This document shows positions 5,157 to 56,323 of a DNA stretch of 64,000 nucleotides, piece after piece (the stretch's first letter is position 1; every line of letters starts with the position of its first letter). Source of the DNA: Paraspadella gotoi. Lineage: Eukaryota > Animalia > Chaetognatha. The stretch spans positions 2,463,268 through 2,527,267 of the forward strand of contig CM119265.1 of NCBI GenBank assembly GCA_051294375.1. Reading direction: 5' to 3'. Below the pieces are notes generated by a model. The model did not search any database. It had not been told where the DNA came from and worked only from the letters and a program-made list of their open reading frames with translations. A program made the translations under genes and the position numbers.

Positions 5157-8100
5157 CTCTCTCCAGCCTTTCTTCATTCTTTCGCCCTCATGTGGTTCGT
5201 CCCGGAATCCCTGCGTTGGCTCTCAAGTCAGGAAGAGAGGAGAGTCATGAACATCTGAAGGAAAGATGCAAGAAAATGTTGAAGGTTGAATCGTTGGAAG
5301 ACTTTGTCAATAAAAGCCGGGCATCCCTCATGGCCAAAGGTGCTAGTGATTGCTCATTTTCTATTGCAGATTTTGCAAAATTTGAGTTATTGCTAGCTCC
5401 ACTTATTATCTTCTCTATGACAGATTGCGATCCGGACCAAAATGTCAGTCATGTTGAAATCAAGCGACAAATTCCGTGTGATGAATTTCGAGGTCCTCAA
5501 ACGGTTGGCGTTCATGAGCTTTCTTTGGATGGCGCGATGGCAACGTAAATAGATGAATCAATATGATCAAACGATTTATCAATCAATCAATCATCATTCA
5601 ATCTCTATCTTCCAGCTACTGGTCCATCAGCCTCTCTTCAACCGACCTCCTTCCTGGCGACCGATACCTAACCTTCTTCTCCTCGGCGCCACGCACGTCC
5701 GTCTATCGCCTTGCTGGGCCTCATCTAAGGATCCATCAACCGGCTGGCATTGGCGCTGATGTTTGCTGGAGCCGCGGCCTGCTTTAGCGCCGCCTATGGG
5801 CTGCAGATGACGGTGGTGAAGGAAGACAATGCTGTCTTTTGACGATCGTCGTTGGTGAGAAAAAGGATGATGATGATGAAAGGACGATGATAACAGTCTT
5901 GAAAAATGACAGAGAAAAATAATATGAAACTAATTTTGAAATTTGTACAAATAATTATTCAATCTTAGCCCCTTGACATATGAACTCAATAAATAGTATG
6001 ACTTTAGATTTTTGATTAAATTCATTTTCCTCTCGCATGGAAACATTTTAATAATTATCAATACAAAATAAATATATAATATAATATACTTAAGGGGTGG
6101 TCTTTTCATACATTGAAACATTCTTTGAAATCATTATACCACTTCATTGATAGGAAGCCAGGATACTCTGGGAGTGAATAAACGAGACTGTGAGAGAGTC
6201 TTGATTGAAAGCTTGCAGGGACCTGCTATGTCATTATCTTGTAAATGATGGAGGCCTTAAACCACCAAAGCCTGTCCAAAGTCAGGGGCAAGAAGCTTAT
6301 TTATTAAATGAATGAATATTTTTTTTATGGTTGTTACAATTTCATATAAAAATGCTTATTTTTTTTTTTGAATATGAAGTTTTTAAAAAATGATTCTAAT
6401 AAAGATTAAAAAGTTAGATAAAGGTTAGTATTTACAAATTTTCAAAAATTTAATGATAAATGGGTTTTATAAATTTAAAAAACTTTCAAAAATCCATCAT
6501 CATCGTCATCATTAATACAGTGTGTCCCAATGGTACTGTCTGTTAAGAAAAGCTTTACTGCTCCTTTTCCAGATGAAAAACTCGAATTCATAGATAAATA
6601 TGCGCACAAGTATGGACCATTTATAGGATACCTAATTTTTAAAAAAATGTGAACAAAGGCAAACTCCTTATTATACATAAAGCAAATGGAATAACATTTT
6701 TTTCAGTGATTTTTAAACAAAAAATTTTAAATTATATACTTTTTAATATTTATCAAATATTTTTTTTAATATTGGATTAAATATGTTTTAAATTTTTTCT
6801 TTAGATGCAGGACAGAAAGAAATTACCTCAATTTTTAGCTCAGAGCTTTTATAATGCAGTAATATTTTTTTAAATTATCAACTATGACCTTGCTCATTAC
6901 TTTTTGAATTGATTTAATATCAAATTAACTAGCTTCTTTTATCAACTTTTATATTTTTTTAGTATTGGTTTATTTCTTCTTATTTTATACAAATTAGAAA
7001 TTTAAATAATTTATATCTTTTAAAATATTTTTTTACATAATTTTTAAAAAAAAATTATTTTAAAGTAAAAATTATCTAAAAATTAAAAAAGAAGACAATT
7101 GAATGTTCTGCCAAAGAAAAATTGATAAAAATTGAATTCCGAAATATCATAAATTATCATAAATGGTAAGAAATTACTTACTTGTTATCAGAAATGATGG
7201 AGCTTAAACACAAGCTTCAGTACAATATGTGAAGGTTAACCGACAGTACCATTGGGACACCTGTAATTTCAAAAAGTTTGTAATAATAACCCTCATCTAA
7301 CTTTTTTAAGCTTTATCATAATCTGATAAAAAAAATTAAATTTACCCAAAAAAATTGTTGACATTATATAGTATTTGGATTAATATAAATAGCATAAGAT
7401 AAATCTTACATTTTTTTATGTTTTCAAGATCTTTTTATATAAACACATTAACAATGTTTATACGAACATCTGTTAGTTTGTAACCTGTTGCGCGCTTACT
7501 GGCAGGTGCGTTAAGCCCGTTAAGTCTGTTAAGTTTATTAATTCCACAAGTTTCTAGGCTTATCTCTCAATGCAATGTCATAGATTTAGCAAAGTTGTTT
7601 TGATCTACTGTGGTGAACTTAATAGCAAATATTTTTTATAAATGTTTTCCCTCTTGTTGAAATATTGTATCTTTTAAAAGACATTTAATTGATATAAATC
7701 ATCCCCCTCACAAAAGGTCGATTTTTCCGGGGAGCGCTGTCATTCTTCGAAGTTTTACACCAACGAATATTTCCGACTTCTTGTCGTTCATTCGTTATGG
7801 TCTTTTGCGTCGGCGCTGGAAGACTTCGTCACAAGGTAAAGGCCATTATTTTTAGTTCACGGGTCTCGCGAGTCTTTGTCACTGTCGTCGGTCCGTCGTT
7901 TGGTTGGCTCATTTGTTAAGACAGAAAAAAACCTCAATCTAGTGACTGCTCAGCGCCCTCTTCCGGAAATCCTAAAAACTATAAGGAATAAAAGACGGAA
8001 TTCCGATTGCAGTGTGCTCGTGTCATAAATAACAGTCTAAGAAAGTTATTGTAGGTCATGTTCATGTCACAAGAAATACACGTGATAAGGCAGTCACTAC

Positions 8101-8610
8101 GGCGTAACACATTTGAATTACCGTTCTTGTTCTTCGTATCTAGAATATTTGAGAAAATTTCTTGATAAGCGGAGGTTATGGAATTTACTCTCTTTTATTT
8201 TACATGGCTTTATTTAATGTTTTAAAAATTGTCTTATCTTCTTCTTTCCTTTTTACATTCGCTTACCTTTATGAATTTGTTTATTTACTATAATAAATTG
8301 ATATTCACTTATTTAATCATTTTTCATTCATTTTCATTCATTTTCATTTCAACTCTTTCCGCCCCTCCAGCGTGCCTCCTTCGCCTCTCTCCTCATCCGC
8401 TCCACGCCACCGCGGTTTCCTCTTATCATCGCCATCGTCAACGTTCGCGGCCGTCCGTCGTCATTGTCGTCGGAATGGAGGGAGACAAAAGGACGGAAGA
8501 TGGCGCAGACTGTGGAAGAGATGGAGGAAGGAGAGGAAGAAAGAGAGGAAAGGGAAAGAAGAGGAAAGGGGAAAGAGAGGAAAGGATGTTGAGGAATAGA
8601 GTTGAATTGA
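2578..8610 (+). CDS. SLC22-family (organic cation/anion transporter-like) MFS transporter, copy 1, 8 exons, with indel errors
   Basis: Approximate exons 2578-2773, 3071-3408, 3795-3964, 5167-5339, 5423-5544, 5616-5854, 7717-7834, 8371-8610, with GT-AG ends. Motifs EFDLIC, RFGRR, GWRELH, PESLRWL, YTNEYF and ETKG match SLC22 signatures (EWDLVC, DRFGRR, PESPRWL, ELFPT, PETKG). Confidence 0.8.
6237..6293 (+). ncRNA. Twister ribozyme, type P5 permutation (family B), within a dispersed repeat (~6140-6350)
   Basis: P5 TCTTGT/GCAAGA; GA-TGG; short P1 AGGCCT; T^AA; T2 AC pairs GT; C-AAA-G; P4 CCTG/CAGG; L4 T-CCA-AA-GT, whose CCA pairs TGG. P2 is degenerate in this copy. Confidence 0.65.
6518..7263. 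mobile_element. Tc1/mariner-type MITE
   Basis: ~28-bp TIRs CAGTGTGTCCCAATGGTACTGTC(T)GTTAA / TTAACCGACAGTACCATTGGGACAC-CTG, flanked by TA on both sides; no ORF. Only the right TIR is present in the duplicate at 17150-17180. Confidence 0.7.
7850..8131 (+). mobile_element. Second HINE/Helitron-like short element family
   Basis: Copies at 17753-18020 (+) and 45670-46027 (-). Starts TTTTAGT, has a GTCGGTCC microsatellite, ends ...GAATTACCGTTCTTGTT. Confidence 0.45.
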
Positions 8611-9424
8611 TGGGAATGAAAGAAGAAATTGTGTTTAAAAACGTGAATAATGAAATTCTATTAGTAATTTATTTTTTTACGCTTTTTAAATTTTCGGAAT
8701 TGCAATTTGGTCGACATTAAAATTTATCGATGTTATTGAATTCGTTTCATTCAAAAAAAATTTAAGAAATATTGGTAATGATTAATATTAAATATTATAT
8801 TTAATTTTATGAAAGTAACACGTGTAGTTTTCGCGTGATCTACCTTTCCGTGATATTCTTAGCTTGGATACATCGAGGAAGTTAGTAAGAACCTCAATTG
8901 CAGTGCGGCATTGAACAGAGAAGTTCTCTAATAATAATGTAAGCTGGACTGTTGCAGATATGAAATAATAAATATATTTTTATTAAATTATTCTTAATTA
9001 TAAGCGACAGCTTTACTTGACGTTTATTTTTACTATTAAATAAAATTTTTTAATTTTTCAATTTTTTCTAAGGCAATTTGATAAGCTTAAAGTTAATAAG
9101 GGTTATTTCATACAATTTAAAAATTTGTTGGAATTATAAAATTTCTCAAAAAGCTAAAAATTCAGCAATGCATATGAGCAGAGTTTTACGCTCTGTTTAA
9201 CCTCAAGTTCTTGTCAATTTGGTAAAGATTGTAGTACTAATTCATCTTAACTGGTTCACATATGCCTCTACAGATCCTGTTGTAAACAGATTTACGAATA
9301 AAGTAAAAATTGTCTTCTGTTATAATAAGGGAAATATCTTTAACTTCATCAGCAATGAATTTTCAAATTCATTTAAACAATCAGATAGAAGGAAAAAGGA
9401 ATTTGAGAGAAATAAAAGTTAATA

Positions 9425-9650
9425 GAAGTCGTTCAATTTTATGACCCGCCTTCATATAAGCAGTCCCTAAGCTTCGGATCAGGCTGAATACCGTGTTATA
9501 GGCGGGGTTTAAGCGCCCCGTCCCTCTTAACTGCTAGGCGGCCACCGGGCTAGAACCCGACCTTAGAGTTTGGGGAGGGCGAACTGTCTTTGCCTCGGCA
9601 AACAATGGCCGACACTCGTATGAAACGGTTGGAGGATTTTCGCTCCATCC
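9425..9650 (-). mobile_element. tRNA-derived SINE-like element, family A, carrying a twister ribozyme
   Basis: Minus strand reads 5' leader, tRNA-like head (GGCCA...GGTTCTAGCCCGG-TGGCC), twister, tail. Homologous to 11165, 19680, 21050 and 55945. Confidence 0.75.
9459..9535 (-). ncRNA. Twister ribozyme, type P5 (family A)
   Basis: AGCAGTT-AA-GAGG-GA-CGG-GGCGCT-TAA-ACCCC-GC-[P3]-CCTGA-TCCGAAGC-TTAGG-GACTGCT; P5, P4, T1 (CCG/CGG) and T2 (GC/GC) all pair. Confidence 0.75.
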
Positions 9651-9689
9651 ATTAACAGTTTATTTTTAACGTTGATTGGTGGAAGCTTC

Positions 9690-10020
9690 ATTTATGTAAA
9701 AAATTTTTTCTTTTTGGTATAAAAAGTTGAGTTTTGTTATCTATAAAAAAAGTATTCTCTCTACCCCACACAAATATTTCACTCCAATTTCCAATCCTCC
9801 AATCACGAGTCTTTTGGCAGTTTTTTTTGCAAAAGTGGACGGACAAGACGGACGGACGGACATCATTTTTTTTTGCAAAATTTTTCATAATTCGAGGTTC
9901 TGGACGATGATATTAAGTGTAATGCCCCGTGACAATATTTGGGGGCAGAGACGACGGGACGACAAAGTGAATTATATGACGTCGGAATCTGCTGATGAGC
10001 ACGATTCCGACATAAAAAAT
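9690..10020 (-). mobile_element. DINE-1/HINE-like element
   Basis: Terminal palindrome GTCGGAATCTGC-TGATGA-GCA(C)GATTCCGAC and a GGACGGACAG microsatellite; duplicate at 19920-20226. Confidence 0.6.
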
Positions 10021-11164
10021 TTATAACCCGATCGATATTCGTTTTCGATATATTACATTCACAAGTTTGTTTTCGTATATCAAGATTAAACGCAGTTTTC
10101 AACCAGACCGGTTTGAAAAAAAAAAAATTATCTCTCTCTATATTTTCTCCCTAAAAACTCCCACACTAAAGCACGATAGTTCTCTAAAGCCTCTCTTAAA
10201 TCGCCATAAAGCAAATGATTTCTTCGTTTACCGAATTCATGATGAATAAAAAAAAATTTGAATCTATTTCCGTTTTGGGTTAACAAAAATTTTCGATCTT
10301 ATATATAATTTTTAGGATGAGAAAATACTTTAATTTTTGGAAAATGTATATGGTTTCCAATGCTCATAGACGATTAGAATAAACGACGCGTCACGCATTT
10401 TTTTATAATCTACTTGGCGACCTTTTCTTCTTACTTGTGTTGAGATTTGAGAATTAATGAAAAATTAAGCAGAAATTAGACTTGTCCATAATCTTCCACC
10501 GTCAAACTTCTGACGATCGCAGCGCACGTCTAAAACGCATTGAAACTGCAGGCGTTGAAGAAAGGAAATTTCTTCACGAAGATTTACCTCAAGAAATCCC
10601 CTAATAAGAACCTCCCATTCTTCAAAATTCCCATGAAATTGCTTTTCCTTCTTCTTTCAAATATTTCCCATTTTTAAATCAAATTTTTTACTAAAAGAAT
10701 CATTCAATATATATATTTTTTAATAGGCGCTTAGCCTAATTTCAGTAAGGTGCGGTTAAAGAAATCTTGAATTAAAAACCACTGCTCAAATGATAATTTA
10801 GACATTTTTTTTAAAAAAAATAATATTTAACTCTATACCCCATATTGATTTTTAAATATTTATTTTATAAATAGGAAAGGCTAAAAATTTTTTTATTTTT
10901 TTTATTTTTAAGACCCAGACAGGTAGTTTGTAAAAAAGTTATAATTCTTTTTTTTTTTTATATTTTCGATCAATAAGTGGAGTTAAAAAAATATAAAAAC
11001 TATTAATAAATATCATCATCATTCTATCTCAATAACTTTTAATACTCTTTTTTTTAATTTCTTGACCAAGAAAACATGAGAATTTTTTGAAAGTTTCATA
11101 AATTATATTTTTTATTTTACTTTTTCCATCGCTCATAAGCATTCATCAAAAAAAAGGTAATTGA

Positions 11165-11422
11165 TGTGGAGCTAAAATCCACCAACCATCATTCAGCGGT
11201 TCATTGTGCGGAGGCAAATCATTTGCTCTCAACCCAAAGGTCCGGAGTTTCCAGATCGGTCGTATTCGCGTAAAAGCCAATTAAGAGGGAACGTGGCGAG
11301 CGCTTACACCCGCTTTAGTAACCACGGTATGTACAGCCTAGGCTCTGAACTCATCAAGCGCACGCGCTATATATTGAACTCGGATTCTGTTCGACTCAAC
11401 ACATAACAATTAATTACTGTCT
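11165..11422 (+). mobile_element. Family A SINE-like element, very noisy copy
   Basis: Alignable along its length to 55945-56157 (CTAAAATCCACCAACC ... CCCAAAGGTCCGG ... TTAAGAGGG ... CAATTAATTACTGTC). Confidence 0.6.
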
Positions 11423-11744
11423 CTTTCATAATATTTAGATTTAAATAAAAATCTATTATAAATTTGTCGAAAGAAGTATTAGTCAATTTTTTTATCCAGC
11501 GAACAATAAAAGCATTAAAATCGAACCTTTTACAAAATTCTTTTTTTACCTTAACAAGTAGGACTTCGTAGACGTGACTAAAGTTTTTGATTTTTGAACT
11601 TCCCCAGCCCCTTATTTTAATTTACATTTTCATTGAGCTAAGATTTCTAAATTTTAAACTAACTTTCCCTCCCAAAAATTCCAATTAAATTCTCACTATT
11701 TTTTAAAAAACCCCCTTTCCCCTTTAAAAAAAATCACTATTCCA

Positions 11745-15966: not shown

Positions 15967-16006
<40 letters not shown>

Positions 16007-18488
16007 GCCTTTTCTTCATTTCTTTCGCCCTCATGTGGTTCGTCCCGGAATCCCTGCGTTGGCTCTCAAGTCAGGAAGAGGAGGAGAGTCATGAACATCT
16101 GAAGGAAAGATGCAAGAAAATGTTGAAGGTTGAATCGTTGGAAGACTTTGTCAATAAAAGCCGGGCATCCCTCATGGCCAAAGGTGCTAGTGATTGCTCA
16201 TTTTCTATTGCAGATTTTGCAAAATTTGAGTTTATTGTTAGCCCTTACTTATTACTTTCTCTATAACAGATTGCGATCCGGAACCAAAAATGTCAGTCAA
16301 TGTTGAAATCAAGCGACAAAATTCCGTGTGGATGAATTTCGAGGTCCTCAAACGATTGGCGTTCATGAGCTTTCTTTGGATGGCGGCGATGGCAACGTAA
16401 ATAGATGAATCAATTGATTAATCAATCAATCAATCAATCATTCAATCATCTATCTTCCAGCTACTGGTCCATCAGCCTCTCTTCAACCGACCTCCTTCCT
16501 GGCGACCGATACCTTAACCTTCTCCTCCTCGGCGCCACGCACGTCCCGTCTATCGCCTTAGCGTGGGCCTCATCTAAGATGATCCATCAACGGCTGGCAT
16601 TGGCGCTGATGTTTGCTGGAGCCGCGGCCTGCTTTAGCGCCGCCTATGGGCTGCAGATGACAGGATGGGTGAAGGAAGACAATGCTGTCTTTTGGACGAT
16701 CGTCGTTGGTGAGAAAAAGGATGATGATGATGAAGGGGACGATGATAACAAGTCTTGAAAATGACAGAGAAAAATATATGAAACTAATCTTTGAAATTTG
16801 TACAAATAATTTATTCAATCTAGCCCTTGACTTTGGACAATATGAAATAGTCTGCAGATTTTGATTAACTTCATTTTCCTCTCGCATGGAAACATTTTAA
16901 TAATTATCAATACAAAATAAATATATAAATATATATACTTAAGGGTGTGGTCTCTTCATACAATTGAAACATTCTTTGAAACATTATACCACTTCATTGA
17001 TAGGGAAGCCAGATACTCTGGGAGTGAATAAACGAGACTGTGAGAGAGTCTTGGTTGAAAGCTTGCAGGGACCTGCTATGTCATTATCTTGTAAAATTGA
17101 TGGAGGCCTTAAACCACCAAAGCCTGTCCAAAGTCACAATATGTGAAGGTTAACCGACAGTACCATTGGGACACACTGTAATTTCAAAAAGTTGTAATAA
17201 TAACCCTCATCTAACTTTTTTAAGCTTTATCATAATCTGATAAAAAAAAATTTAAATTTACCCAAAAAAATTGTTGACATTATATAGTATTTGGATAATA
17301 TAAAATAGCATAAGATAAATCTTACATTTTTTTTATGTTCAAGATCTTCTAATAAACACATTAACAATATTTATACCGAACATCTGTTAGTTTGTAACCT
17401 GTTGCGCCTTACTGGCGAGGGTGCGTTAAGCGTTAAGTTTATTAATTCCCACAGTTTCTAGCTTATCTCTCAATGCAATGTCATAGATTTAGCAAAGTTG
17501 TTTTGATCTAGTGGTGAACTTAATAGCAAATATTTTTTATAAATGTTTTCCCTTTGTGAAAATATTGTATCTTTTAAAAGACATTTAATTGATATAAATC
17601 ATCCCCCCTCACAAAAGGTCGATTTTTCTGCGGAGGAGCGCTTGTCATTCTCGAAGTTTACACCAACGAATATTTCCCGACTTCTTGTCGTTACCTTGGT
17701 TACGGTCTTTGCGTCGGCGCTGGAAGACTCGTCACAAGGTAAAGGCCATTATTTTTAGTCACTTTTTGGTCAGTCTGTCGGTCGGTCGGTCCGTCGTTTG
17801 GTTGCTCATTTGTTAAGACAGAAAAAAACCTCAAATCTAAGTGACTGCTAGCGCCCTCTTCCGGAAATCCTAAAACTATAAGGAATAAAAGACGGAATTC
17901 CGATGCAGTGCGTGTCATAAATACAGTCTAAGAAAGTTATTGTAGTCATGTCATGTCACAAGAAATACACGTGATAAGGCAGTCACTACGGCGTAACACA
18001 TTTGAATTACCGTTCTTGTTCTTCGTATCTAGAATATTGAGAAAATTCTTGATAAGCGGGAGGTTATGGAATTTACTCTCTTTTATTTAACATGGCTTTA
18101 TTTAATTTTTTAAAAAATTGTCTTATCTTCTTCTTTCCTTTTTTACATTCGCTACCTTTATGAATTTGTTATTTACTATAATAAATTGTATTCACTTATT
18201 TAATCATTTTTCATTCATTTTCATTCATTTTCATTCAACTCTTTCCCGCCACCAGCGTCGCCTCCTTCGCCTCTCTCCTCATCCGCTCCACGCCCACCGC
18301 GGTTTCCTCTTATCATCGCCATCGTCAACGTCGCGGCCGTCGTCGTCATTGTCGTCGGAATGGAGGGAACAAAAGGACGGAAGATGGCGCAGACTGTGGA
18401 AGAGATGGAGGAAGAGAGGAAGAAGAGAGGAAAGGGAAAGAAGAGGAAAGGAGAAGAGAGGAAAGGGAGCGAGGAAGAGTTGAATTGA
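13483..18488 (+). CDS. SLC22-family MFS transporter, copy 2 (near-identical to copy 1; probably a redundant haplotype/assembly copy)
   Basis: Same 8 exons and introns as 2578-8610, differing mostly by homopolymer indels; ORFs 15940-16266 (PESLRWL) and 16405-16758 (YWSISLSSTDLLPGDRYLN). Confidence 0.65.
17087..17136 (+). ncRNA. Twister ribozyme family B, 3'-truncated
   Basis: Same core as 6237-6293, but cut after L4 (AAAGTCA), where the MITE end joins. Confidence 0.45.
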
Positions 18489-19679
18489 GGGAATGAAGAA
18501 GGAAATTGTTAAAACGTGAATAATGAAATTCACTTTAGTAATTTATTTTTCTTTTACGCTTTTTTAAATTTCGGAATTGCATTTGGTTCGGCATTAAATT
18601 TATCGATGTTATTGAATTCGTTCATTCAAAAAAATTAAGAAAAATATTGGTAATGATTAATATTAAAATAAAATTTTTTTTGGTGTCCTTATCGATTTGC
18701 GGCTTTGGATTTTAGTTGATTACTACATGGACTTCAATCTGTGTGATTCAAAATATATTTGATTAAACTCGTAATTCTTTCAGTATAGTATATATATATT
18801 TTTTTTAAAATTTATCAGTTAGAAAACTACTTGACGTTTATTTTGACTATAAAAATATTTTACATTTCGATTTCTCTAACCATTTAAGTAAGTAGACAGG
18901 GATTTTCTACCAAAGTGGAATTTATTCTCAGAAAGTAAACAAGCAAGAGGGTGTCATTTCCAGGCAGAGTGAATCAATACAATTTTGGTTCATATTTATA
19001 CTGTGTGAACGGATCGGAGGTAAGGTTAGGTGACAGAACCGTTCAATATAAGCAGTCCCTGGCGATCGGACAGGTTGAACTAGAGAAGTTCTCTCAAATA
19101 AATAATGTAAGTGGACTGTTAGAGAATATGAAATAAAAATAATTTTTAAAAATTATCTTAATTAATAAGCGCACGGAGCATTTAAGATTATTTTATTACT
19201 ATATAAAGTTAAAATTTTTTTGAATTTTTTCAATTTTTTTTTAATGGGATTCTGATAGAGCCTTAAAGTTAGATTGAAGGGTTATTTCTATACAAAATTT
19301 TTAAAAATTTTTTTTTGTTTTTATTTGATAAAATTTTAAAAACTATAAAATTCAGCCAATGATATGATGCATTGATGATTTTATTTTTAACGTTTTTTCT
19401 GTTTTTTAACCAATTTCTTGTCAAAATTTTTTAAAAAATTTGTAGTACTAACTTTCATTTAACTTTCAAAGCCTCTATCAGGATCCGTCTTAAAACTAAT
19501 TTTAAAAAAAAAAATTTTTTGTCATTTGTTATATATTAATAAATATTTTAAAAGCTTCAGTGCAACAAAGCCCAATGAACTATTCAAAAAGTTACATTTG
19601 AAAATCGATATTCAGTAATAGAAGGAAAAAAGGGAATTTTTTTGAGGAGAAAACATAAAAGTTAATAAAAGAAGTGTTC

Positions 19680-19885
19680 AATTTTTGAACCCGCCTTAAT
19701 AAGCAGTCCCTTGAGCATTCGGAACAGGCTGTAAACCGTGTTAAAGGCGGGGTTTAAGCGCCCCGTCCCTCTTAACTGCTAGGCGGCCACCGGGCTAGAA
19801 CCCCGGACCTTTGGGTTTGGGAGGCGAATGTCTTGCCTCCGGCAACAATGGCCGCTGATGAACGGTTGGAGGATTTTCGTCCATC
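19680..19885 (-). mobile_element. Family A SINE-like element with twister (ribozyme 19702-19780)
   Basis: Cleanest tRNA-like head: GCGGCCA TTGTTGCCGGAGGCAAGACATTCGCCTCCCAAACCCAAAGGTCCGGGGTTCTAGCCCGG TGGCCGC (7-bp acceptor stem, B-box-like T arm), followed directly by the twister. Positional duplicate of 9425-9650. Confidence 0.7.
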
Positions 19886-21051
19886 ATAACAGTTTATTTT
19901 TAACGTTGATTGGGAAGTTATTTGATGTAAAATTTTTTTTTTGGTAATAAAAAGGTAGTTTGTTATTATAAAAAAATATTCTCTCCTACCCACACACAAA
20001 ATTACACTCCAATCCAATCCTCCAATCACGAGTCATTGGAGTTTTTTTGCAAAAGTGGAACGGACAGACGGACGGACGGACATCATTTTTTTTTGCAAAA
20101 TTTATCATAATTCGAGGTTCTGACATGATTTAAGTGAATGCCCCGACAATATTTGGGGGCGAGACCGACGGACCGACAAAGTGAATTATAGAGTCGGAAT
20201 CTGCTGATGAGCAGATCCGACTAAAAATTTATAACCCGATCGATATTCGTTTCGATTATATTACAAGTGTTTTCGTATAACTCAAGATTGTTGAAAACCA
20301 GTTTTCAACCAGACCGGTTTGAAAAAAAAAATTATCTCTCTCTTATTTCTCCCTAACTCCACACTAAAGCGTAGTTTATCTCAAATAAAACCTCGTACTT
20401 AATCAAATCGGCTAATAAACAAATGATTTTTCGTTACCGAATTCAGATTGAATAAAAAAAAAATTTAATCTATTTCCGTTTTTGGTTAAAATTTTCGATC
20501 TTATTATAATTTTTAGGATGAGAAAATACTTTATTTTTGAAAAAGATGTTTCCAATGATCATAAGACGGGTAAGATCTTTTCGATTAGATAATCGAGGTT
20601 TTGTTCGAGATGTCATGAAACCTACTTTACCTATTATTTCTTTTTTTTCTTTTTCTCCCCAAAAAGCCACGCTGCTCTTTTTTCCCATCCCCTCCCCTGA
20701 AAAATATCTCATAGATTTGAGGAAAAAGTGATGCCTCACCTCTCTCTCTCTCTATTTCTCTCTTTTACATATTTTACACTATCACTTTTTTAGTTTTACG
20801 GCTGTCAATTTTTGGAGAGAGAGAAACTTATTCTTTAGTTATGTTTTAGACTCACATTGAAACACGTCGCCCTTCCAAAATACAGTTTTACTGGACGTAA
20901 TGGACTTTATTGTGAAAATACATTTTTTTATAATCTACTTGGCGACCTTTTCTTCTTTACTTGTGTTGAGATTGAGAGACGCTTGAGAGAAATTCCTGCC
21001 ATAATCTTCCATCGTCAAACTTCACGATCGGGCAACGTCTAAACGTCGCCA

Positions 21052-21127
21052 AGCAGTTAAGAGGGACGGGGCGCTTAACCCGCCTGTAACACGGTGTTAC
21101 AGCCTGATCCGAAGCCCAGGGACTCTT
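21052..21127 (+). ncRNA. Twister ribozyme, type P5 (family A), in a 5'-truncated element
   Basis: AGCAGTT-AA-GAGG-GA-CGG-GGCGCT-T^AA-CCC-GC-CTGTAACACGGTGTTACAG-CCTGA-TCCGAAGC-CCAGG-GACT; predicted cleavage 21076/21077. Confidence 0.8.
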
Positions 21128-21801
21128 TATGTCGAACGGTTCTGTCACTAACACATAACAATAATTATTGTCTCTTCATAATGTTGATTTAAATAAAATT
21201 TTATCAATTTGTAGTAATATTGTAATTTTGATAGCAACAATAAAAGCATTAAAATCGAACTTTTTTACAAAATTCTTTTTTTACCTGAAAGTAGACTTCG
21301 TGACTAAAGTTTTTAACTCCAGCCCTTATTAAATTTAATTTCATGGTAGATTTCTAATTTAACTAACTTTCCCTCCCAAAAATTCCAATTTTAATATAAA
21401 AAAATAAAAATAAAAATTTCAATTAAATTCTCTTATTTTTAAACCCCCTTTCCCCTAAAAAAAAATCTTCATCAAAAATCTTTCCATTTGTTAACCCACC
21501 TTTTAATTTATATTAAAAATAAAGATTTCAAAAGGAGGAAAAAGTCAGTCCAGAAGTGAGTACTACTGAGTTTGTTTGTTTGTTTAATATGAAAACTGCA
21601 GTCAAAAGCCGTATAAAGAATTTGTCAAGCGGTTGAGACACTGCGCTCTCGGAATCTTGTATTTCCAAATCGATTGTATAACCGGATCAAATCGTTATTG
21701 TCTCAAGATTTTCGGTATTCAGATTTGAACGAAAAACATTATTGAAAAAAATGTGGAATTGTTTTTTTAAGGAAAATCGACTTTAAAAAAAAAAAAGCAA
21801 A

Positions 21802-38288: not shown

Positions 38289-38355
<67 letters not shown>

Positions 38356-41300: not shown

Positions 41301-44300
41301 ACCCACGCAACTTAAAGAAAAATGATTTGAATTGCTGCCCAAGCACTCGTACCGCAAGCTAAAAGGTTACTGATAACTTTACTCATAACTAACATCTAAT
41401 AACTTTTTAGACAGGTTTGAGACAGTTTTTAATGTCTTTTAAAGACCAAAAGAACCTATTAAATGAGTTGTGAAATTTTATATTTAAGCATAAAGAGCTC
41501 AAAAATGCTAAAAAGTATGAAGAATATAATTATAATTTTAATCATTTTTTATTTTCATTTATTATTTAAAGTTTAATATTATGTAATTTTGATTTTATTT
41601 TCAGTGAGTACTGCTAAATATTATTTTTTAATATTTATTCTTCACAAATTTAGGAATAACTTTTAGTAAGTATTTTATCAAAACTATAATTCATTTAATA
41701 TTTTATATATATAAATATTATATTATTATATAAATTTATTAAAATCAAGGTTTAATTAAAATATAAAGTCTACATCAAAAATATATTTCAAAATCAAATC
41801 AAGTATTGATTTTAATCATTATTTATTTTAAAAAATAATATCCTTTAAAATAATTTCACATATAAGATTACGATCCAAGAGAAAACCGCAAAAGTACTCG
41901 ATCACTTGGAAACTGGGAGAGTTCCTTTCCGGTCAAGTTTTTTCAGGTTTATCAGTCCCAATGTCTTCTAGCAAGACAAAAAGGAACCTAATAAAATGAG
42001 TCGTGAACCCTTCATCTGGTGTAATTGAAAATTTGGGTAACTCTAATATATTTTATTATATATATATATTATTATATATTTTGTTTAATATCTCTTACTC
42101 GAAGATATTTCATCTTTGACTAAATATTTTCATTATTCAATTTTCCAGCCTATCGTTTGAAATTCTTTTTTTATACAATATTTCTTACAATTAGAATTTT
42201 CATGTATTATAAAAAAATTTATTATTTTATTTATTATTAGCACATCCCGACTTTATAATGCGTCGTTGCGTCGGTCCCAACCCTAAATCTTGTCGGGCAC
42301 TCACTTAAATCATGTCAGAACATCGAACTATGATAAAATTATGCAAAAAAATTATGTCCGTCCGTCCGCCGCGTCCTCTGTCTGTCCGTCCCCATCTAAT
42401 TACTCGTGATTGGATGGTTGGATTAGAATAAAATGTTGTGTGTGGTTAGAAAAGTGTGTGATTGAGCTGGATATAAAGTTTCGATGGAATCGTGCAAGTT
42501 AAAATGAGTTTAAATGAAAAAAAAAACATGAGTCACATTTAGTTAAATATTTTTACTAATTCAACCCTAAATACTCGAATTAATCATAATTAGATGTATA
42601 GATTAAGTGTGTGGGTAGGAAAGGTGTGTGATTTAGTTAGTCACCTCAATAGTTAAAAAAATGATTTAAAATAAAAAAAGTTATGCAAGTTGAAAAAAAT
42701 GAGTTCAAAAAATGATGCGAGTTGAAAAAATACTAGTGAAATAAATTATTAGTACCATAGTAACAGTTCAGTTTAATCCCTTGCAAGTGATTTACATGTA
42801 TTGGCGCAGCCACTAGTTTGGTATGGTACAATCGGTTATGATCAGTAAGGATCACAAATTGAAAGAATTATCGTGATTTATCATCTGATTGGCTGATTAC
42901 CGCTTAATTATCGCTGGCAGATCCGACACTGTTTGCTCAAACTTGTTTAATGTATTTTTGTTTGAGTTTAAAAAAAAAAATTGTAAATTTAGTACAGGAT
43001 TTGGATCCTTTATTAAAAAAAAAAAATTAGAAAATACTCAGAATGATTGAGAAATCGACAGATTTACCATAAAAACTGTTTCTACAATGATGCGGTCGCC
43101 GACCAATAAATTTATGTCGAAGAGAAGATCCCACTTTTCACGGCGGAGGTGTGACGCGCCTTTGTAAGCGAGTTAACGCGCCTGGAAGCAGCGGAGGGTC
43201 TCTTGCGAGTCGGGTTTCCATCTAGTCGCTTATGCTCTTAGACGAGGATGTCCGCTCGACTCGCCCCCTTTACCGGAAGTCGAGTGCTTCTCAAAGTCCG
43301 CGGTCGACTTTATCGGTTGCGGTCGACCATCGCCATCGGACTCTGAGGCAGCGAATGCGATCTCGTCGTAGCTCGAGGCGATACCACCCGACTGTCTGCA
43401 CCTGCTTCCCTTTTAATTTTTATCTATTTTTTTTTTAAACGGGGCTGGTTTAAATAAAATGGCTAATGACGGATGGTAAAATAAAATTTAATGATGGATG
43501 GAAAAGAAAATATTTTAATGATGGATGGAAAAGAAAATATTTTAATGACGATTAGCAAAGAATATATTTTAATGACGGATGGCAAAAAAAAATATTTTCT
43601 TGTCACATTCATCGGAAATCATTGAATCATTGACTGATGATGGATTATCATCACATCAATGATCGATTATTATCGTATCTACTATGATAGTATCAATAAA
43701 TCGTTATCATTGCATCGATAAATCTTAAGGTAACATCGCTTTAATAAATTGGTGTGGTGGTATATTCACACCGCCTCAAGTCCACAATCGTTCTGCCAAT
43801 ACCATTGGCTCTGAGGGTGGAACACACCACCCCAAGCATTGCGTTACATCCACAGTCCTAAAAACTTCCATCTGTGTTGGCTAGGCGAGGCCGTCCAAGG
43901 GTAACCGCGCCAGTGAAAGGAGGCGTCACTGAGGGTCCGAAGCCCCCAAAGCCAACAGTGAGATGCCCCATCCCAATTGGCATCACAGGCAACCCGGCTG
44001 TTGCCATAAGGGGATCAACAATCTTGAAGTGAAGTTTGGGCATTTATTTATTTTAAAAATAATTTTGCCATCAAGATCACTATACTAAGAATTTTTGATT
44101 TTATGTTAGGATCTGTTGTAATATGTCATGATCACAAATTAAAAGACTCATCATGACTAATCATCTAGTTAGCTGCTTACCGCTAAATTATCGTAAGCAG
44201 ATCCGACATTGTTTGCTCAAACTTGTTTTCTATTTTATTTGTCCACAGATTCCGACTCTATAATTCACTTTTTCGGTGCGTCGGTCCGCCCCCTCAATCT

Positions 44301-48594: not shown

Positions 48595-49433
48595 GAGACA
48601 GACAGATAGGACAGACAGACAGACAGACAGACAGACCGAGAGAGAGACAGACAGGCAGACATAGAGAGAGAGAGAGAGACAGACAGAGGAAGAGAGAGAG
48701 GAAGAGAGAGGTGAGAGACAGACAGATAGACCGACAGAGAGTGAGACAGACAGACTAAGAGAGAGAGAGAGAGACAGACAGACAGCAAACAGACAAACAG
48801 AGAGAGAGACAGACAGACAGAGAAAGAGAGAGACAGACAGACAGACAGAGAGAGAGAGAGAGAGAAACAGACAGACCGAGAGAGAGAGGGATAGACAGAT
48901 AGACAGCAGACAGACAGAGAGAGGAGAGAGACAGACAGACAGACCGAGAGAGAGAGACAACAGATAGACCGACATAAATAGAGAGAAAGACAGACAGACC
49001 GAGAGAGAGAGAGAGGGAGCCCCACCCTGACTTACCTCCGACCATTTAGGTGAGGGACTACAATCGAATGATCAGTTCCATTCCAAGTTCGAAGACTGGT
49101 GAGGGAGATCTCTTCAAAGAAAAGGTCAGTTCAACCCAAATGATTAAATCACAAATTTAAAAAAAAATTAAACCATAATTGAAACGCCTTAACTGACCTA
49201 TTTAGTAAAGTCTTAATTCTTAACAATTGAAGCAGTTAATAATTACCAATTCATTTATGGGGAAGCTTGGTAACCGCACACTGAACTGTTGAAAGCTTGC
49301 GGGGTCCCGCTATGTTATTATCTTATTAGAGGAATGGAGACCTGAAACCAAAGCCTGTCCAAAGTCAGGGGAAAGATAGCTTATTTATCGATATTTTTCA
49401 TGTACCAATTTCATAAGTTGTCTCTACTCTCGG

Positions 49434-51579: not shown

Positions 51580-54500
51580 CCTCTCCCACAGTTAATCGAA
51601 AAAGATCCCGAGAAGATTCGCCTCATGAGCCAAATCGACAAAGGAGTTTGCGAACTCGCGATTTGTCTTGAATCTTATCAGCAATCGACTTGGGTCAAAT
51701 ATCGAGAAGTTTGGGAATTGGACAAAGATGAATTCATCAAGTGAGATTGGAGACGATAGCGATGAATGGCGGGTGATTGGAGATATTTAACGAGAAAAAA
51801 AAGAGTGGTTAAATACGGATGATTGGAGATATAGTAATGAGAAAAAGAACGGTTAATTACGTGTGGTGAGTTTTGGGTTCAGTCCCCCTCACGGTCACGC
51901 TGGTTATGTGCGATGGTGCCGATATAAGCGCGCCAGCGACACGGGGTTGTTACTGCAGTTCCGAAGCCCCGAGCGCAGCTTGTCTGGAGATGCCTCACAC
52001 CCAGGGCGTCACACATGTCTCCCCGATGCCATAATGTATTCTTTTCTTAAAAGAAAAAAATCACTAATTCACACCCCTTCGATCTATCAATGTCCTTTTC
52101 GTCTCATCCAACCAATCACCGCTCTCTTTTTCCTCTATCCAACCAATCAGCGAATACATGGAAACTTCGCCAAACAACTCTGATTTCGAGACGGACATTT
52201 CCAAATACGATGACATCGCGAATCAGTGCGAAACCGAGGAGACGATCCGGATGGTGAGATTGTGAATGTGTGAATAAGTGGGTGACTGTGCGAGTTGGTA
52301 ATTAAGTGAATGAAATTGGTGAGTAAGTGCGGGAGTTGGTGAGTGGGTGAGTGGGTGAGTGAGGTTGTGAAAGAGTGAATGTGCGGGCGAGTGCTTCAGT
52401 GAGTGAGTGTGTGAATAAGTTTCTGAAAAAGTTGAGTTAGTGAGTGAAAGAGTTATTATGTGATTGCGTTAGTTACAGAGTGACTCACGGAAGACAACTC
52501 AACTTACTCCTTTCACTGCCCTTCTGCTCCTTTTTTCCCATTCTAATCTTCCTCCTTCCGCCTTCTAATCTTCCCCTTCTAATCTTCCCACAGGAGCGTT
52601 TCGCCCTCATCGACTGCAGCCCCATCAAAAGCTCCATCATGAGTCATTGTCTGGAGTGGCACAACCGCATCGGGTTCTTGCTCTTGGGCAACACCGTTCA
52701 GGAATTGCAGAGAGTTCACGATCTCATTCATGAGAATTCTGCCGTCACAGTCGTGGTGAGGAAGAAGGGGGAGTCACCCAATCGAGGGGGAAGGTGGTCA
52801 CCCCACCGAGGGGGAAGGGGGTCACGTAACCGAGGGGGAAGGGGGTCACCAACCCGAGGGGGAAGGGCATATCTTTTTTAAAAAATCTAAGATATTAATT
52901 TTTTTTAAATAAATATAGTTCCAAGTTTTTTCTTAAAATGGGAATAATGTAAAAATGTTTATTGTAACTGTTTTTCGGACTTAAAGGAATTGCATAATTT
53001 AGAGTGTGACATCAGAGGTCCCACCGAGATTCGAACTCGGATCGCAGGATTCAAAGTCCTGAATGCTGACCGTTACACCATGGGACCATTTGAGATATGA
53101 TCTTTTTGGCACTGTCAGCTTCAAGGTTTGAATTTCAATTGAGTCAATTTATTTTAAATATTTTTTTTTTTGGTGAGGGGGGGGGTTGCCCACCCAATGG
53201 CAAGGGGTTTCAATTAAGAATGGTTAGCCTTCTAAAAAATACATAGACAGTAAGAGTAGGTTTATTTTTTAAATATTGTTTAAATAGATACTATAAAATA
53301 ACGAACGCGCGAGGACAGTTTATGTCAGGTCAAAAATAAGAGTTTGGATGAGAGAAGGAAAAAGACAGTGACTGAAGCGAGGCATAATATTTTACAGATA
53401 CCATTCTGTGGGCCATTATGCGTTTTTTCACAAACTGAGAACCAAGCATTACCCCCGAACTTACTAGTTCCTCAGAGTTAAGGTCCCACCGAGATTCGAA
53501 CTCGGATCGCAGGATTCAAAGTCCTGAATGCTAACCGTTACACCATGGGACCACGATATCTCTATGTCTGTTTGAACGAATTTATTAGTAGTGTTAGCTT
53601 CACGTTTTAAATTTTAATTTAGTCGAGAGTGTTTAATTTATTTTATTTTTTGAATTTTAATTTATTTTTAGAATTTTTATTAATTTTTCGGTTTAAAATG
53701 AAATTTGTACAAACACAGAGTTGGCGAATAACCATGAATTATTAACCGAACCTCCTCAAACCTTCTACCCTACTTTAACAAGGATCTTTATATTCTCCAC
53801 CCCTCCCTTACCCTACCCATCCTCTTCAATTCCACCCCCAAGCCACCCGCCACTCTGGAGGAACTGGGGGTGAAGATCCTCGCCTACGAAGCCATCATAG
53901 AGGATCTGGAGACGACGGAGCTTCGCTTCCCCATCATCTCGGAGGCTTTGGCCATTCTCCACATGTTCGAGATTCCTGTGGACGAGGAGATGGCGACCTT
54001 GTGGGCGGACTTCTCCAATGAGTGGCTGTCGTACCAAACGGTAAAAAGAGGAGAAAAAGGAAAGGAAAAGGAAAGAAAGTAAAATAATGGAAATGAAAAG
54101 AAAAAAGTAAATGAAAAAAAAAGGAAAAAATAATAGAAAATCTGATTAAAACATAAGGAAAGAAAAGAATAATGAATCAAAAATAAGGATGGGGGAAAAA
54201 GAAATAAAAAGAAAAAGTTTTTGAGACTCTCTCACACTCTGCCCATCTCACTCCCTCTCCCCATCTCTCTCCCTCTCCTCCTCTCTCTTCCTCTCCCCAT
54301 CTCTCCCCCTAGATCCTCCACGGTGCTGGACAAATGCTGGAGAAAGTCAAAGAGAAATTCCGCGCCGACCTTCTGCGTCAGGCCGAGGAATGGCGTCAGA
54401 AATGCCTGGCGCTGTACGAACACTTCATGGCCACCGGACCTTTCTACTCTAACTTCACGAGCGAACAAGCATGCGAGATCATGGGCGAGACTCACAGGTG

Positions 54501-56323
54501 TGTGAGGAAGCTTGCATTTGATTGCCTACTTGTTCTATCTCCCTCTTTTACAAGACCATATATAATATATATTCTCATTATGTCATTATGTCACTATGTC
54601 TTTTTTTATTAATAATGATTAATATTGTATCAAACTCTCTAATCAATCACTATCATCAATGGCTATAATAATTAAAAGATTTAATATACAATTTATGATC
54701 TCGAAATATCACACGTACTGAGGTTATTTATACCAATACGACTATATGCAAATGAGATTGACGATTACAATCTTATTTTCCATTGAATCGAGAGTTTATC
54801 TCTGATACCATCCCGTCGGTACGTACATCCGTCGCTATGTCAGTCTGCCGCAGTGTCCGTACATTCTCTCTCTATTTGTCCATACATCCGTCCGTCCGTC
54901 AACAGGGACATCGATCGCCTTCGGGTCGTCGAAGCGGAGATTCGTCGCGGTCTTCTCATCTTCCGTATGGACCTTCCGCCATCCCACGATCTCTTGATGC
55001 TGGAGAGACATTTGGGGGAGATCGAAGGCATTTGGGAGATTGCAATGCAATGGGACAGGTTCGGCATTGAGTTAATTTTTTGTTGTTAAAGATTAAGTTG
55101 AAAGTTAGTATAAAGGTATAGGGATTAAGTGAGCGATTAAGGTCGGTGTTTAAGATTAGGGGTTATGATTAGAAATTGGGGATAAGGATTTAGGATTAGG
55201 ATTAGCATTAGGTTAGATTAGGGATAAGGGTTAAAGGAACAAAAATGAGGCGCTCTGGAAAAAGAGAGCCGGCCAAAGAGGGTTTGGATTAGGGAAATTG
55301 GACAGGTGGGTCAAAAATGGTTTGGATTAGGGAATTTGGGAGATTCCAATGCAATGACAATCCTGGTTAGAATATGACTGCGATTAACTTGGAAGAATCC
55401 AATACAATGGGACAAGGAGAGTAAACGATTAATTTGCGAGGAGCAAATCAACCAATCTATTCCTAACTTACCTTTCTCTCCCCCCCTAACTACACAACCA
55501 ACCCACCCCAGACTCTGGGACGAATGGCGACTCGGCGCCTTCGCCACTCTCCGCACGGAAGTCATGGAGGACACCTCCAACGAGCTTTTCAAGAAGTTGA
55601 CCCTCATCGACAAATCGTTGAAGAAATCCGGGTTCGAGTGGAGCATCGTCGCCTCGACCTGTCATCGCGTGGACGAGTTTAGGAGGACGATGCCTCTGGT
55701 CACGGATCTCCACAATCACGCCATGAGGGCGCGACATTGGGAACAGATCAAGGTTTCTATTAGGGGGGGGAGTGCGGCTTTAGAGGGGTGAGAGTAGATT
55801 AAGGGTTTTTGGGGGAAGGTCTGTTGGGAACTGATTATTTTATGGTCTTTGTTTTAGAGGTGGATGGTTTGGATTTGTATTTACAGGCGATGCCAAATGT
55901 TGGTCCACCGGTTCTTTTTTTTCTTTTTTTTTTTTCATAAGTCTATGGTGGACTAAAATCCACCAACCGTTCATCAGCGGCCATTGGTGCAGGAGGCAAG
56001 TCATTCGTCTCCCAACCCAAAGGTCCCAAAGGTCCCCAGCAGTTAAGAGGGATGGGGCGATTAACCCGCCTGTAACACAGTGTTACAGCCTGATCCGAAG
56101 CTCAGGGACTGCTTATATTGAACGGTTCTGTCATTAACACAACAATAATTACTGTCTTTTAAAGTCCCACGGTTAATTTTCTTTATCCGTTCGTACAATC
56201 TAGCTTTTTAATGCGTTTCAATTCATTTTGTATCTTTTTCCGACGCATCGATCGAAAAGTTTTAAAAATTCGTTACGTCATATATCGTCATATAATGTCC
56301 AATAAACTCTAATCTAAATCTCG

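What the first reader, a model, noticed from the sequence alone, without database searches (positions are those of the whole stretch)
6237..56113. At least four different repeat families share the same twister fold with compensatory pseudoknot changes
Seen: family A has T1 CCG/CGG and T2 GC/GC; family B (6237, 17087, 49319) T1 CCA/TGG and T2 AC/GT; family C (43875, 51898) L4 CCG and T2 GC/GC; family D (24363, minus) L4 CCA and T2 AC/GT. P3, P4 and P5 differ in sequence among families yet stay paired (P5: AGCAGTT/GACTGCT, TCTTGT/GCAAGA, TGTTGGCT/AGCCAACA, CCTTGC/GCAAGG). Families A, C (43875) and D share a bulged A in the 3' strand of P2, and all have a minimal P1. About ten copies in 64 kb (fewer after removing assembly redundancy). 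Inference: a whole superfamily of ribozyme-bearing SINEs in which the twister acts as the conserved central domain, possibly at very high genomic copy number.
Basis: partly seen in the sequence, partly recalled or inferred. Interest (0 to 1): 0.88.

Follow-up and report, generated by a model that had tools for sequence, protein, structure and literature searches.

The report
Twister ribozymes in animal LTR-like repeats
Four families of short repeats in this likely invertebrate genome, one estimated at about ten thousand copies, share the fold of the self-cutting "twister" RNA with a self-complementary arm that likely lets it cut only in pairs, and at least two of them are likely the end-repeats of small parasitic retrotransposons rather than SINEs; cutting is untested.

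Summary
A type-P5 twister fold occurs at 8 probably independent loci, in four repeat families (A, B, C with subfamilies C1/C2, D). A descriptor finds 4 sites with ≤2 defects against 0.18 per shuffled window. The C1 and D copies are decayed, but contigs from other copies restore the catalytic GA, the UAA and the pseudoknot pairs. Three of five pseudoknot pairs vary between families, always as Watson-Crick swaps. New here: P1 is a 6–8-nt self-complementary linker with a different inner tetramer in each of four families, as in dimer-acting hammerheads. The SINE reading fits poorly for C1 and D. They have fixed ends, short inverted termini and no tail; D has an exact 4-bp TSD; some C1 ends run into a PBS-like sequence. 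Best model: solo LTRs of non-autonomous, probably Gypsy-mobilised elements, i.e. animal LTR-retrozymes carrying twister instead of hammerhead. No two-LTR copy was seen, only 2 of 6 copies show a clean TSD, Rfam does not call the motif, family B may be Penelope-like, and cleavage is untested.

The parts
55944..56162 (+). Family A element (dynein intron). Starts TATGG with a 5' hairpin; tRNA-like segment with an internal deletion; twister core; 3' part. Flanked by AGTC at 55940-55943 and 56163-56166 (3' end inferred from the 21047 copy).
56038..56113 (+). Family A twister core with 0 descriptor defects. P5 56038-44/56107-13, GA 56051-52, T1' 56053-55, P1 linker 56056-61, predicted cut between 56062 and 56063, T2 56068-69, L4 56094-56101.
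21047..21180 (+). Family A copy lacking its 5' part in this assembly version. Intact GA, CGG, palindromic linker GGCGCT and TAA; ends TCATA. The near-duplicate copy at 11160-11440 keeps the head but is noisy.
11160..11440 (+). Noisy near-duplicate of the 21047 locus, with the head region
19690..19888 (-). Family A copy with the full tRNA-like segment (B-box-like GGTTCTAGCCC) and a different, shorter 3' part; no TSD found
9445..9660 (-). Near-duplicate of the 19699 locus; core 9456-9537
19025..19077 (-). Family A fragment starting within P4
6237..6293 (+). Family B twister core. GA 6247-48, T1' TGG, linker AGGCCT 6252-57, predicted cut between 6258 and 6259, T2 AC/GT, L4 6275-82; P2 damaged. 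Element about 6150-6346, ends unresolved.
17087..17136 (+). Near-duplicate of 6237, cut off after L4 by a deletion of about 940 bp relative to the first version
49319..49376 (+). Decayed family B core (U-1 and T2 5' lost); element about 49255-49415
63322..63395 (+). Family B fragment whose similarity begins at the A just after the predicted cut site
43753..44008 (+). Family C1 element, 256 bp, ends defined by contig loose ends (TGTGG ... CCATA). Order 10^4 copies. Core 43876-43956, predicted cut between 43902 and 43903. This copy is decayed at 43890, 43897, 43917 and 43938.
51862..52033 (+). Subfamily C2 element, 172 bp, homologous to C1 at both ends, with a shorter head. GA 51912-13, linker TGCCGATA, TAA 51925-27, 4-bp P2, P4 damaged.
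24251..24540 (-). Family D element, 290 bp. TGTAGTGA ... TCACTTCA termini; exact TSD AGAT at 24544-24541 and 24250-24247; tRNA-like arm shared with A; core 24438-24363, predicted cut between 24414 and 24413. Order 10^2 copies; this copy is decayed.

Best explanation
These are four families of 170-290-bp dispersed repeats that each carry a type-P5 twister fold whose P1 helix is replaced by a 6-8-nt self-complementary linker; C and D (probably also A) are likely solo LTRs of small non-autonomous, Gypsy-mobilised retroelements whose ribozyme is predicted to cut mainly when two copies pair. Inferred cycle: a full element (LTR-PBS-internal-PPT-LTR) is transcribed, possibly from a degenerate tRNA-derived Pol III promoter inside the LTR. 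The two LTR twisters pair through the palindromic linkers to form a shared P1 and cut at U/AA. [quoted passage not shown] A Gypsy RT primed by a tRNA at the PBS copies it, and integrase inserts it with a 4-bp TSD, mostly as solo LTRs. Solo copies would cut poorly and decay. Shown: the fold, intact family majorities for C1 and D, the palindromes, fixed ends and copy abundance. Inferred: LTR identity, promoter, cleavage, dimer gating, circles and the partner element. Family B may be mobilised differently.
For: Fold above chance. In D, 5 of 5 majority substitutions inside the core (24424, 24414, 24403, 24381, 24373) restore a conserved base or pair; in C1, 43890, 43897, 43917 and 43938 do so. Contigs identical to the window copy (X4 record 9, 43713-43937; X2 record 6, 24295-24620) show that the defects they cover are genuine decay, not assembly error. 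Across families T1 pair 2 (C-G/G-C), T1 pair 3 (G-C/A-U) and T2 pair 1 (G-C/A-U) change on both sides. The inner tetramers of the linker are four different perfect palindromes (A GCGC, B GGCC, C1 CTAG by majority, D CCGG). Chance would be about 1.7e-5 if the families were independent. The 6-mers of A, B and D form self-duplexes of -8.3 to -9.1 kcal/mol and no hairpin. A palindromic short helix marks dimer-acting hammerheads (PMC4209133 passages). LTR signs: D termini and exact TSD, and equal depth at both ends (14.5k and 12.6k in X2); a 4-bp repeat around A56036; flank pluralities that fit a palindromic target AA(G/T)-ANNT-(C/A)TT on both sides of C1 and D; no tail. In 2 of 3 runs that list it, the loose end two bases past the C1 3' end reads TGGTGAGCC; the X2 consensus matches 11 of 13 bases of the start of a published Helenus internal region. 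Plant LTR retrozymes have ribozymes in 300-400-bp LTRs, 4-bp TSDs and solo LTRs (PMC4918200). Animal Helenus TRIMs have tRNA-like LTRs, 4-bp TSDs and Gypsy-type PBSs (PMC10886601).
Against: No two-LTR element or PPT was seen in the window or in the contig tables. A clean TSD was found in only 2 of 6 copies checked (C2 needs a 1-nt slip and one mismatch; C1, A19699 and B49319 have none). A, B and C end in TA, not CA. C1 depth is 1.8-5 times higher at the 3' end than at the 5' end, and B and A have 5'-truncated fragments, as TPRT gives. The PBS-like string also shares 8 bases with the start of C2, so it could be a head-to-tail neighbour. tRNA-like boxes are weak: a 1-mismatch B box in A (p about 0.02-0.03), not significant in C1, D or B; Rfam and ARAGORN do not call them. 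P1 is dispensable in known twisters (PMC5408937; PMC11662667), so monomers might cut. A and D have A-U where twisters have a nearly invariant G-C closing P4. Rfam twister models do not reach threshold.
Confidence: 0.5

Rival explanations
1. The repeats are non-autonomous derivatives of Penelope-like (for example Naiad) pseudo-LTRs, i.e. non-LTR retrozymes using a dimeric twister in place of the hammerhead, inserted by target-primed reverse transcription. This is the more likely reading for family B.
For: 5'-truncated B fragments share the 3' end (63322, 25914), and one starts at the A after the predicted cut. Two B loci carry a ~13-nt copy of the 3' end on their 5' side. C1 has a 3' depth excess. 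Naiads lack canonical hammerheads (PMC8557442), and animal retrozymes are proposed to be PLE derivatives (bioRxiv 2026.07.22.740005). Unchecked AI notes describe palindrome-armed P5 twisters in Naiad tails of other genomes.
Against: D has both ends fixed, equal end depth, inverted termini and a 4-bp TSD. No head-to-tail joint is among the 15 joints shown per call (20 and 9 not shown). No group of 20 or more contigs starts at the C1 cut site among the six loose-end rows shown for X2. No RT-like motif was found in the window.
Confidence: 0.22
2. One reading: these are tRNA-derived SINEs with the twister as a conserved central domain, mobilised by a LINE, like the hammerhead-bearing SINE-like repeats of schistosomes.
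For: Size 170-290 bp; a tRNA-like arm shared by A and D (24 of 30 identical, z 5.3) and weakly by A and C1 (z 2.7); C1 3' excess; hammerhead precedent in Schistosoma (PMC6765202 passage).
Against: The tRNA-like part starts 30-60 nt inside a fixed 5' end. C1 and D have no A or simple-repeat tail. The TSD is 4 bp where seen. Tails of different families show no similarity to each other except C1/C2. A cut in the middle would separate promoter from tail.
Confidence: 0.15
3. The twister fold is a catalytically dead or incidental relic carried by elements that move as DNA (MITE-like, short TIRs, 4-bp TSD).
For: Short inverted termini and a symmetric target preference also fit DDE DNA transposons. 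No Rfam call; A-U at the P4 closing pair in A and D; no cleavage data.
Against: Family majorities keep GA, UAA and all pseudoknot pairs while surrounding sequence diverges beyond alignment, with three two-sided pair changes. That points to selection on the RNA. The inverted termini are only 5-8 bp.
Confidence: 0.1

Closest known systems
Type-P5 twister ribozyme (class of Roth et al. 2014, not read; features from PMC5408937 and PMC11662667)
   Same: Permutation with ends in P5; U/AA cut site; general-base G followed by A; 3-bp T1; 2-bp T2; P2; optional P3; P4 with an 8-nt L4.
   Different: P1 is a 6-8-nt palindrome, not a hairpin. P2 has a bulged or mismatched A in A, C1 and D. A-U closes P4 in A and D. 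Not recognised by Rfam at threshold. Activity untested.
Plant LTR retrozymes (PMC4918200, PMC7761336)
   Same: A ribozyme inside a ~300-bp terminal repeat, 4-bp TSD, solo LTRs, a PBS-like sequence, presumed Gypsy partner and circular intermediate.
   Different: Animal host, twister instead of a type III hammerhead, predicted dimer dependence, tRNA-like segment in the repeat, PBS-like string of the tRNA-Trp type (label recalled) rather than tRNA-Met. No full element or circle shown.
Helenus TRIMs (PMC10886601)
   Same: Short animal LTRs (up to 323 bp) with a tRNA-like segment, 4-bp TSD, Gypsy-type PBS, many families per genome, solo LTRs.
   Different: The paper has 0 mentions of twister, and 6 L4 octamers searched in its supplement gave 10 hits; none of the 7 passages shown is twister-like in an animal LTR (line breaks can hide motifs). 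The Pol III boxes here are more degenerate.
Dimer-acting type I hammerheads of Penelope-like elements and animal non-LTR retrozymes (PMC4209133, PMC7229834)
   Same: A short palindromic helix next to the cut site that two copies can complete.
   Different: A different ribozyme class; those occur in pseudo-LTRs or tandem arrays without PBS, PPT or 4-bp TSD.
T-variant twisters at the 5' end of Perere-3 RTE LINEs of Schistosoma mansoni (PMC8501958)
   Same: A twister in an animal retroelement, with weak P1.
   Different: There the ribozyme is type P1, sits at the very 5' end and the copy starts at the cut. Here it is type P5 and internal, and both halves are kept in full copies.

Membership tests
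Twister ribozyme, type P5 | U/AA cleavage site and general-base GA in L1 | tested here: met
   Present in A (56036, 21047), B 6237 and C2; restored by majority in C1 (98-100%) and D (79-100%)
Twister ribozyme, type P5 | Pseudoknots T1 and T2 | tested here: met
   Paired in all five variants at family or best-copy level; three pairs change on both sides between families
Twister ribozyme, type P5 | Stems P2, P4 and P5 | tested here: met
   Met in A, C1 and D (P2 with one bulge or mismatch). P2 of B 6237 and P4 of C2 are damaged and were not checked against contigs
Twister ribozyme, type P5 | Stem P1 as a hairpin | tested here: not met
   A 6-8-nt linker with no stable hairpin but self-complementary; P1 is dispensable in known twisters
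Twister ribozyme, type P5 | Nearly invariant G-C pair closing P4 | tested here: inconclusive
   G-C in B and C1, A-U in A and D
Twister ribozyme, type P5 | Rfam twister model at gathering score | tested here: not met
   negative; twister-P1 14.4 bits against a cut-off of 67.2
Twister ribozyme, type P5 | Site-specific self-cleavage | not testable with these tools
   Needs a bench assay
LTR element (TRIM/Helenus) | Fixed ends with short inverted termini (TG...CA type) | tested here: met
   D TGTAGTGA/TCACTTCA; C1 TGTGG/CCATA (ends in TA); sharp loose ends
LTR element (TRIM/Helenus) | 4-bp TSD | tested here: inconclusive
   Clean in 2 of 6 copies (D, A56036); flank pluralities fit ANNT on both sides
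LTR element (TRIM/Helenus) | PBS after the 5' LTR | tested here: inconclusive
   PBS-like loose end 2 nt after C1 in 32, 28 and 20 contigs (agreement 0.44-0.52); X2 consensus 11 of 13 to a Helenus internal start; none shown for D
LTR element (TRIM/Helenus) | Two LTRs around an internal region with a PPT | not testable with these tools
   None in the window; no genome held; the tool does not return whole contigs
LTR element (TRIM/Helenus) | tRNA-like boxes in the LTR (TRGCY/YGG, GGTTC) | tested here: inconclusive
   GGTTC in A; TRGCY in C1; arm shared by A and D; not significant in B, C1 or D; no Rfam or ARAGORN call
LTR retrozyme | Hammerhead ribozyme in the LTR | tested here: not met
   No hammerhead hit in Rfam scans; twister instead. 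It may work like a retrozyme but is not a member as defined.
LTR retrozyme | Circular RNA delimited by the cut sites | not testable with these tools
   No run on record as RNA
tRNA-derived SINE | tRNA head at the very 5' end | tested here: not met
   30-60 nt of shared element sequence lies upstream of the tRNA-like part in A, C1 and D
tRNA-derived SINE | A-rich or simple-repeat 3' tail and long variable TSD | tested here: not met
   C1 and D end sharply without a tail; D TSD is 4 bp. B unresolved.
Penelope-like pseudo-LTR / non-LTR retrozyme | 5' truncation and partial or full tandems | tested here: inconclusive
   Truncated fragments and a short terminal repeat in B, 3' excess in C1; none in D; no tandem joint among the rows shown
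Penelope-like pseudo-LTR / non-LTR retrozyme | Similarity to the 3' end of an autonomous PLE | not testable with these tools
   No genome held

The most novel reading that the evidence does not exclude
An animal superfamily of LTR retrozymes: Helenus-like TRIMs whose LTRs carry a tRNA-derived promoter and an obligate-dimer twister. Palindromic P1 arms swap between the two LTRs of one transcript, so only full two-LTR RNAs are cut and circularised, while some ten thousand solo LTRs stay uncut. This would be a natural dimer-gated twister and a twister-based LTR retrozyme.
Probability: 0.3. Interest if true: 0.88.

Novelty: new variant of a known kind. Interest (0 to 1): 0.72.

Why it matters
Twister ribozymes have almost no assigned biological roles; the one tied to a retroelement in the papers read here is the 5'-end motif of an RTE LINE. 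A type-P5 twister kept intact across four diverged repeat families, with a palindrome that changes sequence but stays self-complementary, offers a direct test of whether twisters, like hammerheads, are gated by dimer formation. If the carriers are LTRs, the plant LTR-retrozyme design has an animal counterpart with a different ribozyme class. Standard Rfam scans miss these motifs, so such families may be common and unannotated. Ten paper searches found no report of a twister in LTRs, TRIMs or SINEs, or of a natural dimeric twister. The library lacks most subscription papers, and Roth et al. 2014 with its supplement was not read.

Tried and rejected
No whole genome is held, so no genome-wide model search was possible. 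Rfam: no twister at gathering or at E<=10 over the window; of 4 narrow scans only one gave a weak partial match. The first two descriptors were unsuitable: one search was too loose (mostly AT-rich noise), and one search had a G+C filter that dropped the family A copies; one search is the corrected one, and it still misses the noisy 19699 and 11166 copies and the decayed 49319 copy. A family A-type pattern in viral contigs gave 4 loci, none twister-like on inspection. A family C-type pattern in metagenome contigs gave 2 GC-rich loci without similarity to the window. No RNA holder is listed; run X9 is only guessed to be RNA and is not used as expression evidence. A hammerhead in the family A or B heads was considered by eye and rejected (no complete core). 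The B-box-like match in C2 (p 0.01) was discounted because that stretch aligns with the 5' hairpin of C1. One YxDD-like string in six frames lies in an unrelated antisense frame; no RT was found. Look-ups of earlier findings by place, sequence and three word sets were empty. No covariance model was built: five divergent variants from decayed copies are too few.

Full report
Setting. The window is eukaryotic, with microsatellite-rich introns, an axonemal dynein heavy chain gene (Pfam DHC_N2; the named relatives among 40 hits are DNAH2-like proteins of insects and flatworms at 58-73% identity), C2H2 zinc-finger frames and three tRNA-Gln genes. An invertebrate animal is inferred. The assembly is noisy and redundant: 2334-12844 recurs at about 13237-21739 with 78-94% identity, and 30258-33364 recurs three more times. 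Whether these are haplotypes or duplications was not tested. No genome is held.

1. Observation. All named sites show the type-P5 order of a twister. A descriptor requiring GA, T1, UAA, P2, T2, C, P4, L4 and P5 finds 1 site with no defect, 4 with at most 2 and 9 with at most 3. The means in 200 block-wise dinucleotide shuffles are 0, 0.18 and 2.2. Eight of the 9 are repeat copies. There are 11 core-bearing copies and 2 fragments, at 8 probably independent loci: A at 56036, 21047 (=11166) and 19699 (=9454); B at 6237 (=17087) and 49319; C1 at 43875; C2 at 51898; D at 24363. Rfam does not call them, except for a weak partial twister-P1 match on C1, the only hit in that stretch (14.4 bits, E 2.6).

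2. Do the families keep the core? The C1 and D copies lack catalytic bases, so contigs of 4 of the 9 listed runs were laid on them at 80% likeness. C1 (4782, 4031, 1523 and 271 contigs laid): the majority has A at 43890 (98-100% of depth), giving GA; G at 43938 (97-99%), giving L4 CGG that pairs with CCG at 43891-93; C at 43917, repairing P3; and T at 43897, making the linker palindromic. One majority letter (43875) shortens P5 by a pair. D (310, 292, 175 and 57 contigs): the majority restores GA (24424, 79-85%), TAA (24414, 84-100%), the third T1 pair (24381, 65-78%), P4 (24373) and P3 (24403). Loose ends behind 24421 show one more G in the linker. A minority at 24428 (0-42%) breaks a P2 pair. 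Contigs identical to the window copies show that the defects they cover are real decay (position 43938 lies just beyond the identical C1 contig).

Copy number. Summed depth over C1 is 1.3-1.9 million in X2 and X4 against 85-280 for single-locus contigs, and about 0.75 million against 11-27 in X5: order 10^4 copies. For D it is 14,000, 36,000 and 2,600 against 95, 204 and 18-27: order 10^2. The tool warns that summed depth is not a copy number, so these are magnitudes only.

3. The P1 linker. Between T1' and the cut site lie 6-8 bases that do not fold as a hairpin but are self-complementary: GGCGCT (A), AGGCCT (B), an 8-mer centred on CTAG (C1 majority) and GCCGGT (D). The four inner tetramers differ, and all are perfect palindromes (about 1.7e-5 if independent; the families are related, so this overstates it). 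The A, B and D 6-mers give self-duplexes of -8.3 to -9.1 kcal/mol. The single decayed C2 copy and the 56036 copy are imperfect. Animal type I hammerheads have a short palindromic helix III and cut as dimers (PMC4209133 and PMC7229834, passages). Against a strict need for a dimer, P1 is dispensable in known twisters (PMC5408937 passages; PMC11662667 section 32), though that study focused on type P1.

4. What carries the ribozyme. C1 spans 43753-44008: loose ends at 43753 in 59, 48, 39 and 14 contigs, and at 44008-44009 in 183, 174, 145 and 43 (678 further rows not shown). D spans 24540-24251 (375 rows not shown), with TGTAGTGA...TCACTTCA termini, an exact AGAT duplication and similar depth at both ends. 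Neither has a tail. The plurality letters of the unrelated flanks fit a symmetric target, AA(G/T)-ANNT-(C/A)TT, in both families; agreement is only 0.42-0.50, so this is a weak preference. A56036 is flanked by AGTC on both sides if its 3' end is placed by the 21047 copy. C2 needs a slip and a mismatch; C1, A19699 and B49319 show no TSD (2 of 6 clean). A group of C1 contigs (32, 28, 20) continues two bases past the end into TGGTGAGCC in X2 and X5 (TGGTTGG in X4). The X2 consensus matches 11 of 13 bases of the start of the Helenus-2_SyJa internal region; the tRNA-Trp label and the two-base spacer as an integrase signature are recalled. The same string shares 8 bases with the start of C2, so a tandem neighbour is not excluded. 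A tRNA-like arm lies inside A and D (24 of 30 identical, z 5.3), more weakly A and C1 (z 2.7), 30-60 nt from the 5' end. Box matches are significant only in A, and tRNA finders do not call them. Against LTR: C1 depth is 1.8-5 times higher at the 3' end, which could be truncation or this copy's divergence. B has 5'-truncated fragments, one starting at the A after the predicted cut (63322), and a ~13-nt repeat of its 3' end on the 5' side, which looks more like TPRT.

5. Mechanism. The most likely model (0.5) is solo LTRs of non-autonomous Gypsy-mobilised elements in which two LTR twisters pair through the palindrome, cut out a unit-length RNA, and the circularised RNA is copied and integrated. 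The published retrozyme model predicts solo LTR, monomer and multimer products from a circular template (PMC4918200 passages). Only the fold, family integrity, palindromes, ends and abundance are shown. Rivals: Penelope/Naiad-derived non-LTR retrozymes (0.22, favoured for B), LINE-mobilised tRNA-SINEs (0.15), and a dead relic in DNA elements (0.10).

6. Comparison and novelty. It works like a plant LTR retrozyme but fails membership (twister, not hammerhead). It resembles Helenus TRIMs, with two LTRs and a PPT unseen. It is a twister by core features, with P1 and the Rfam score not met. Papers seen: PMC8501958 part 1 of 9 and passages; PMC10886601 parts 2-4 of 6, passages and two supplement searches; PMC11662667 section 32 and passages; passages only of PMC6765202, PMC7229834, PMC7761336, PMC4918200, PMC10085705, PMC5408937, PMC4209133, PMC8557442 and two bioRxiv preprints (preprint supplements not seen). 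Roth et al. 2014 was not read; its supplement lists eukaryotic type-P5 twisters and could hold related repeats. Ten searches showed no report of twisters in LTRs, TRIMs or SINEs, or of natural dimeric twisters. Unchecked AI notes from this scan describe palindrome-armed P5 twisters in Naiad tails of other genomes; they strengthened the Penelope rival and are not used as support.

Verdict. A real, well-supported ribozyme-fold superfamily, with the class of carrier element only moderately resolved and activity untested. New variant of a known kind; interest 0.72.

Noticed in passing
window 53016-53087, 53481-53552, 57330-57401 (minus): Three intact tRNA-Gln genes (two TTG, one CTG) antisense within the dynein heavy chain gene region.
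   Followed up: no
window 28170-29073: Tandem array of about 13 copies of a 70-bp unit (89% matches).
   Followed up: no
window 2334-26237 and 30258-43678: Two to three noisy near-copies of a transporter-like gene region (SLC22-like by eye; one fragment gave no Pfam hit) and four copies, two inverted, of a 5' dynein region; probably assembly redundancy.
   Followed up: partly
window 63322-63395: Family B fragment whose similarity begins exactly at the A after the predicted cut site, as a reverse-transcribed 3' cleavage product would (one case only).
   Followed up: partly
window 6145-6160 and 49243-49256: Both independent B loci carry a ~13-nt near-copy of the family's 3' end on their 5' side; unexplained (terminal redundancy or long TSD).
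   Followed up: partly
window 19690-19700 versus 56114-56162: Family A copies have two different 3' parts after P5; the 19699/9454 locus has a short one and no TSD, possibly a recombinant or a subfamily.
   Followed up: partly
window 250-418, 31537-31850, 35220-35337, 42236-42529, 44246-44746: Another dispersed repeat family with several copies in both orientations; no twister descriptor hit.
   Followed up: no
window 61810-63003 (minus) and 63438-63824: C2H2 zinc-finger reading frames at the window's end (Pfam for the first).
   Followed up: partly
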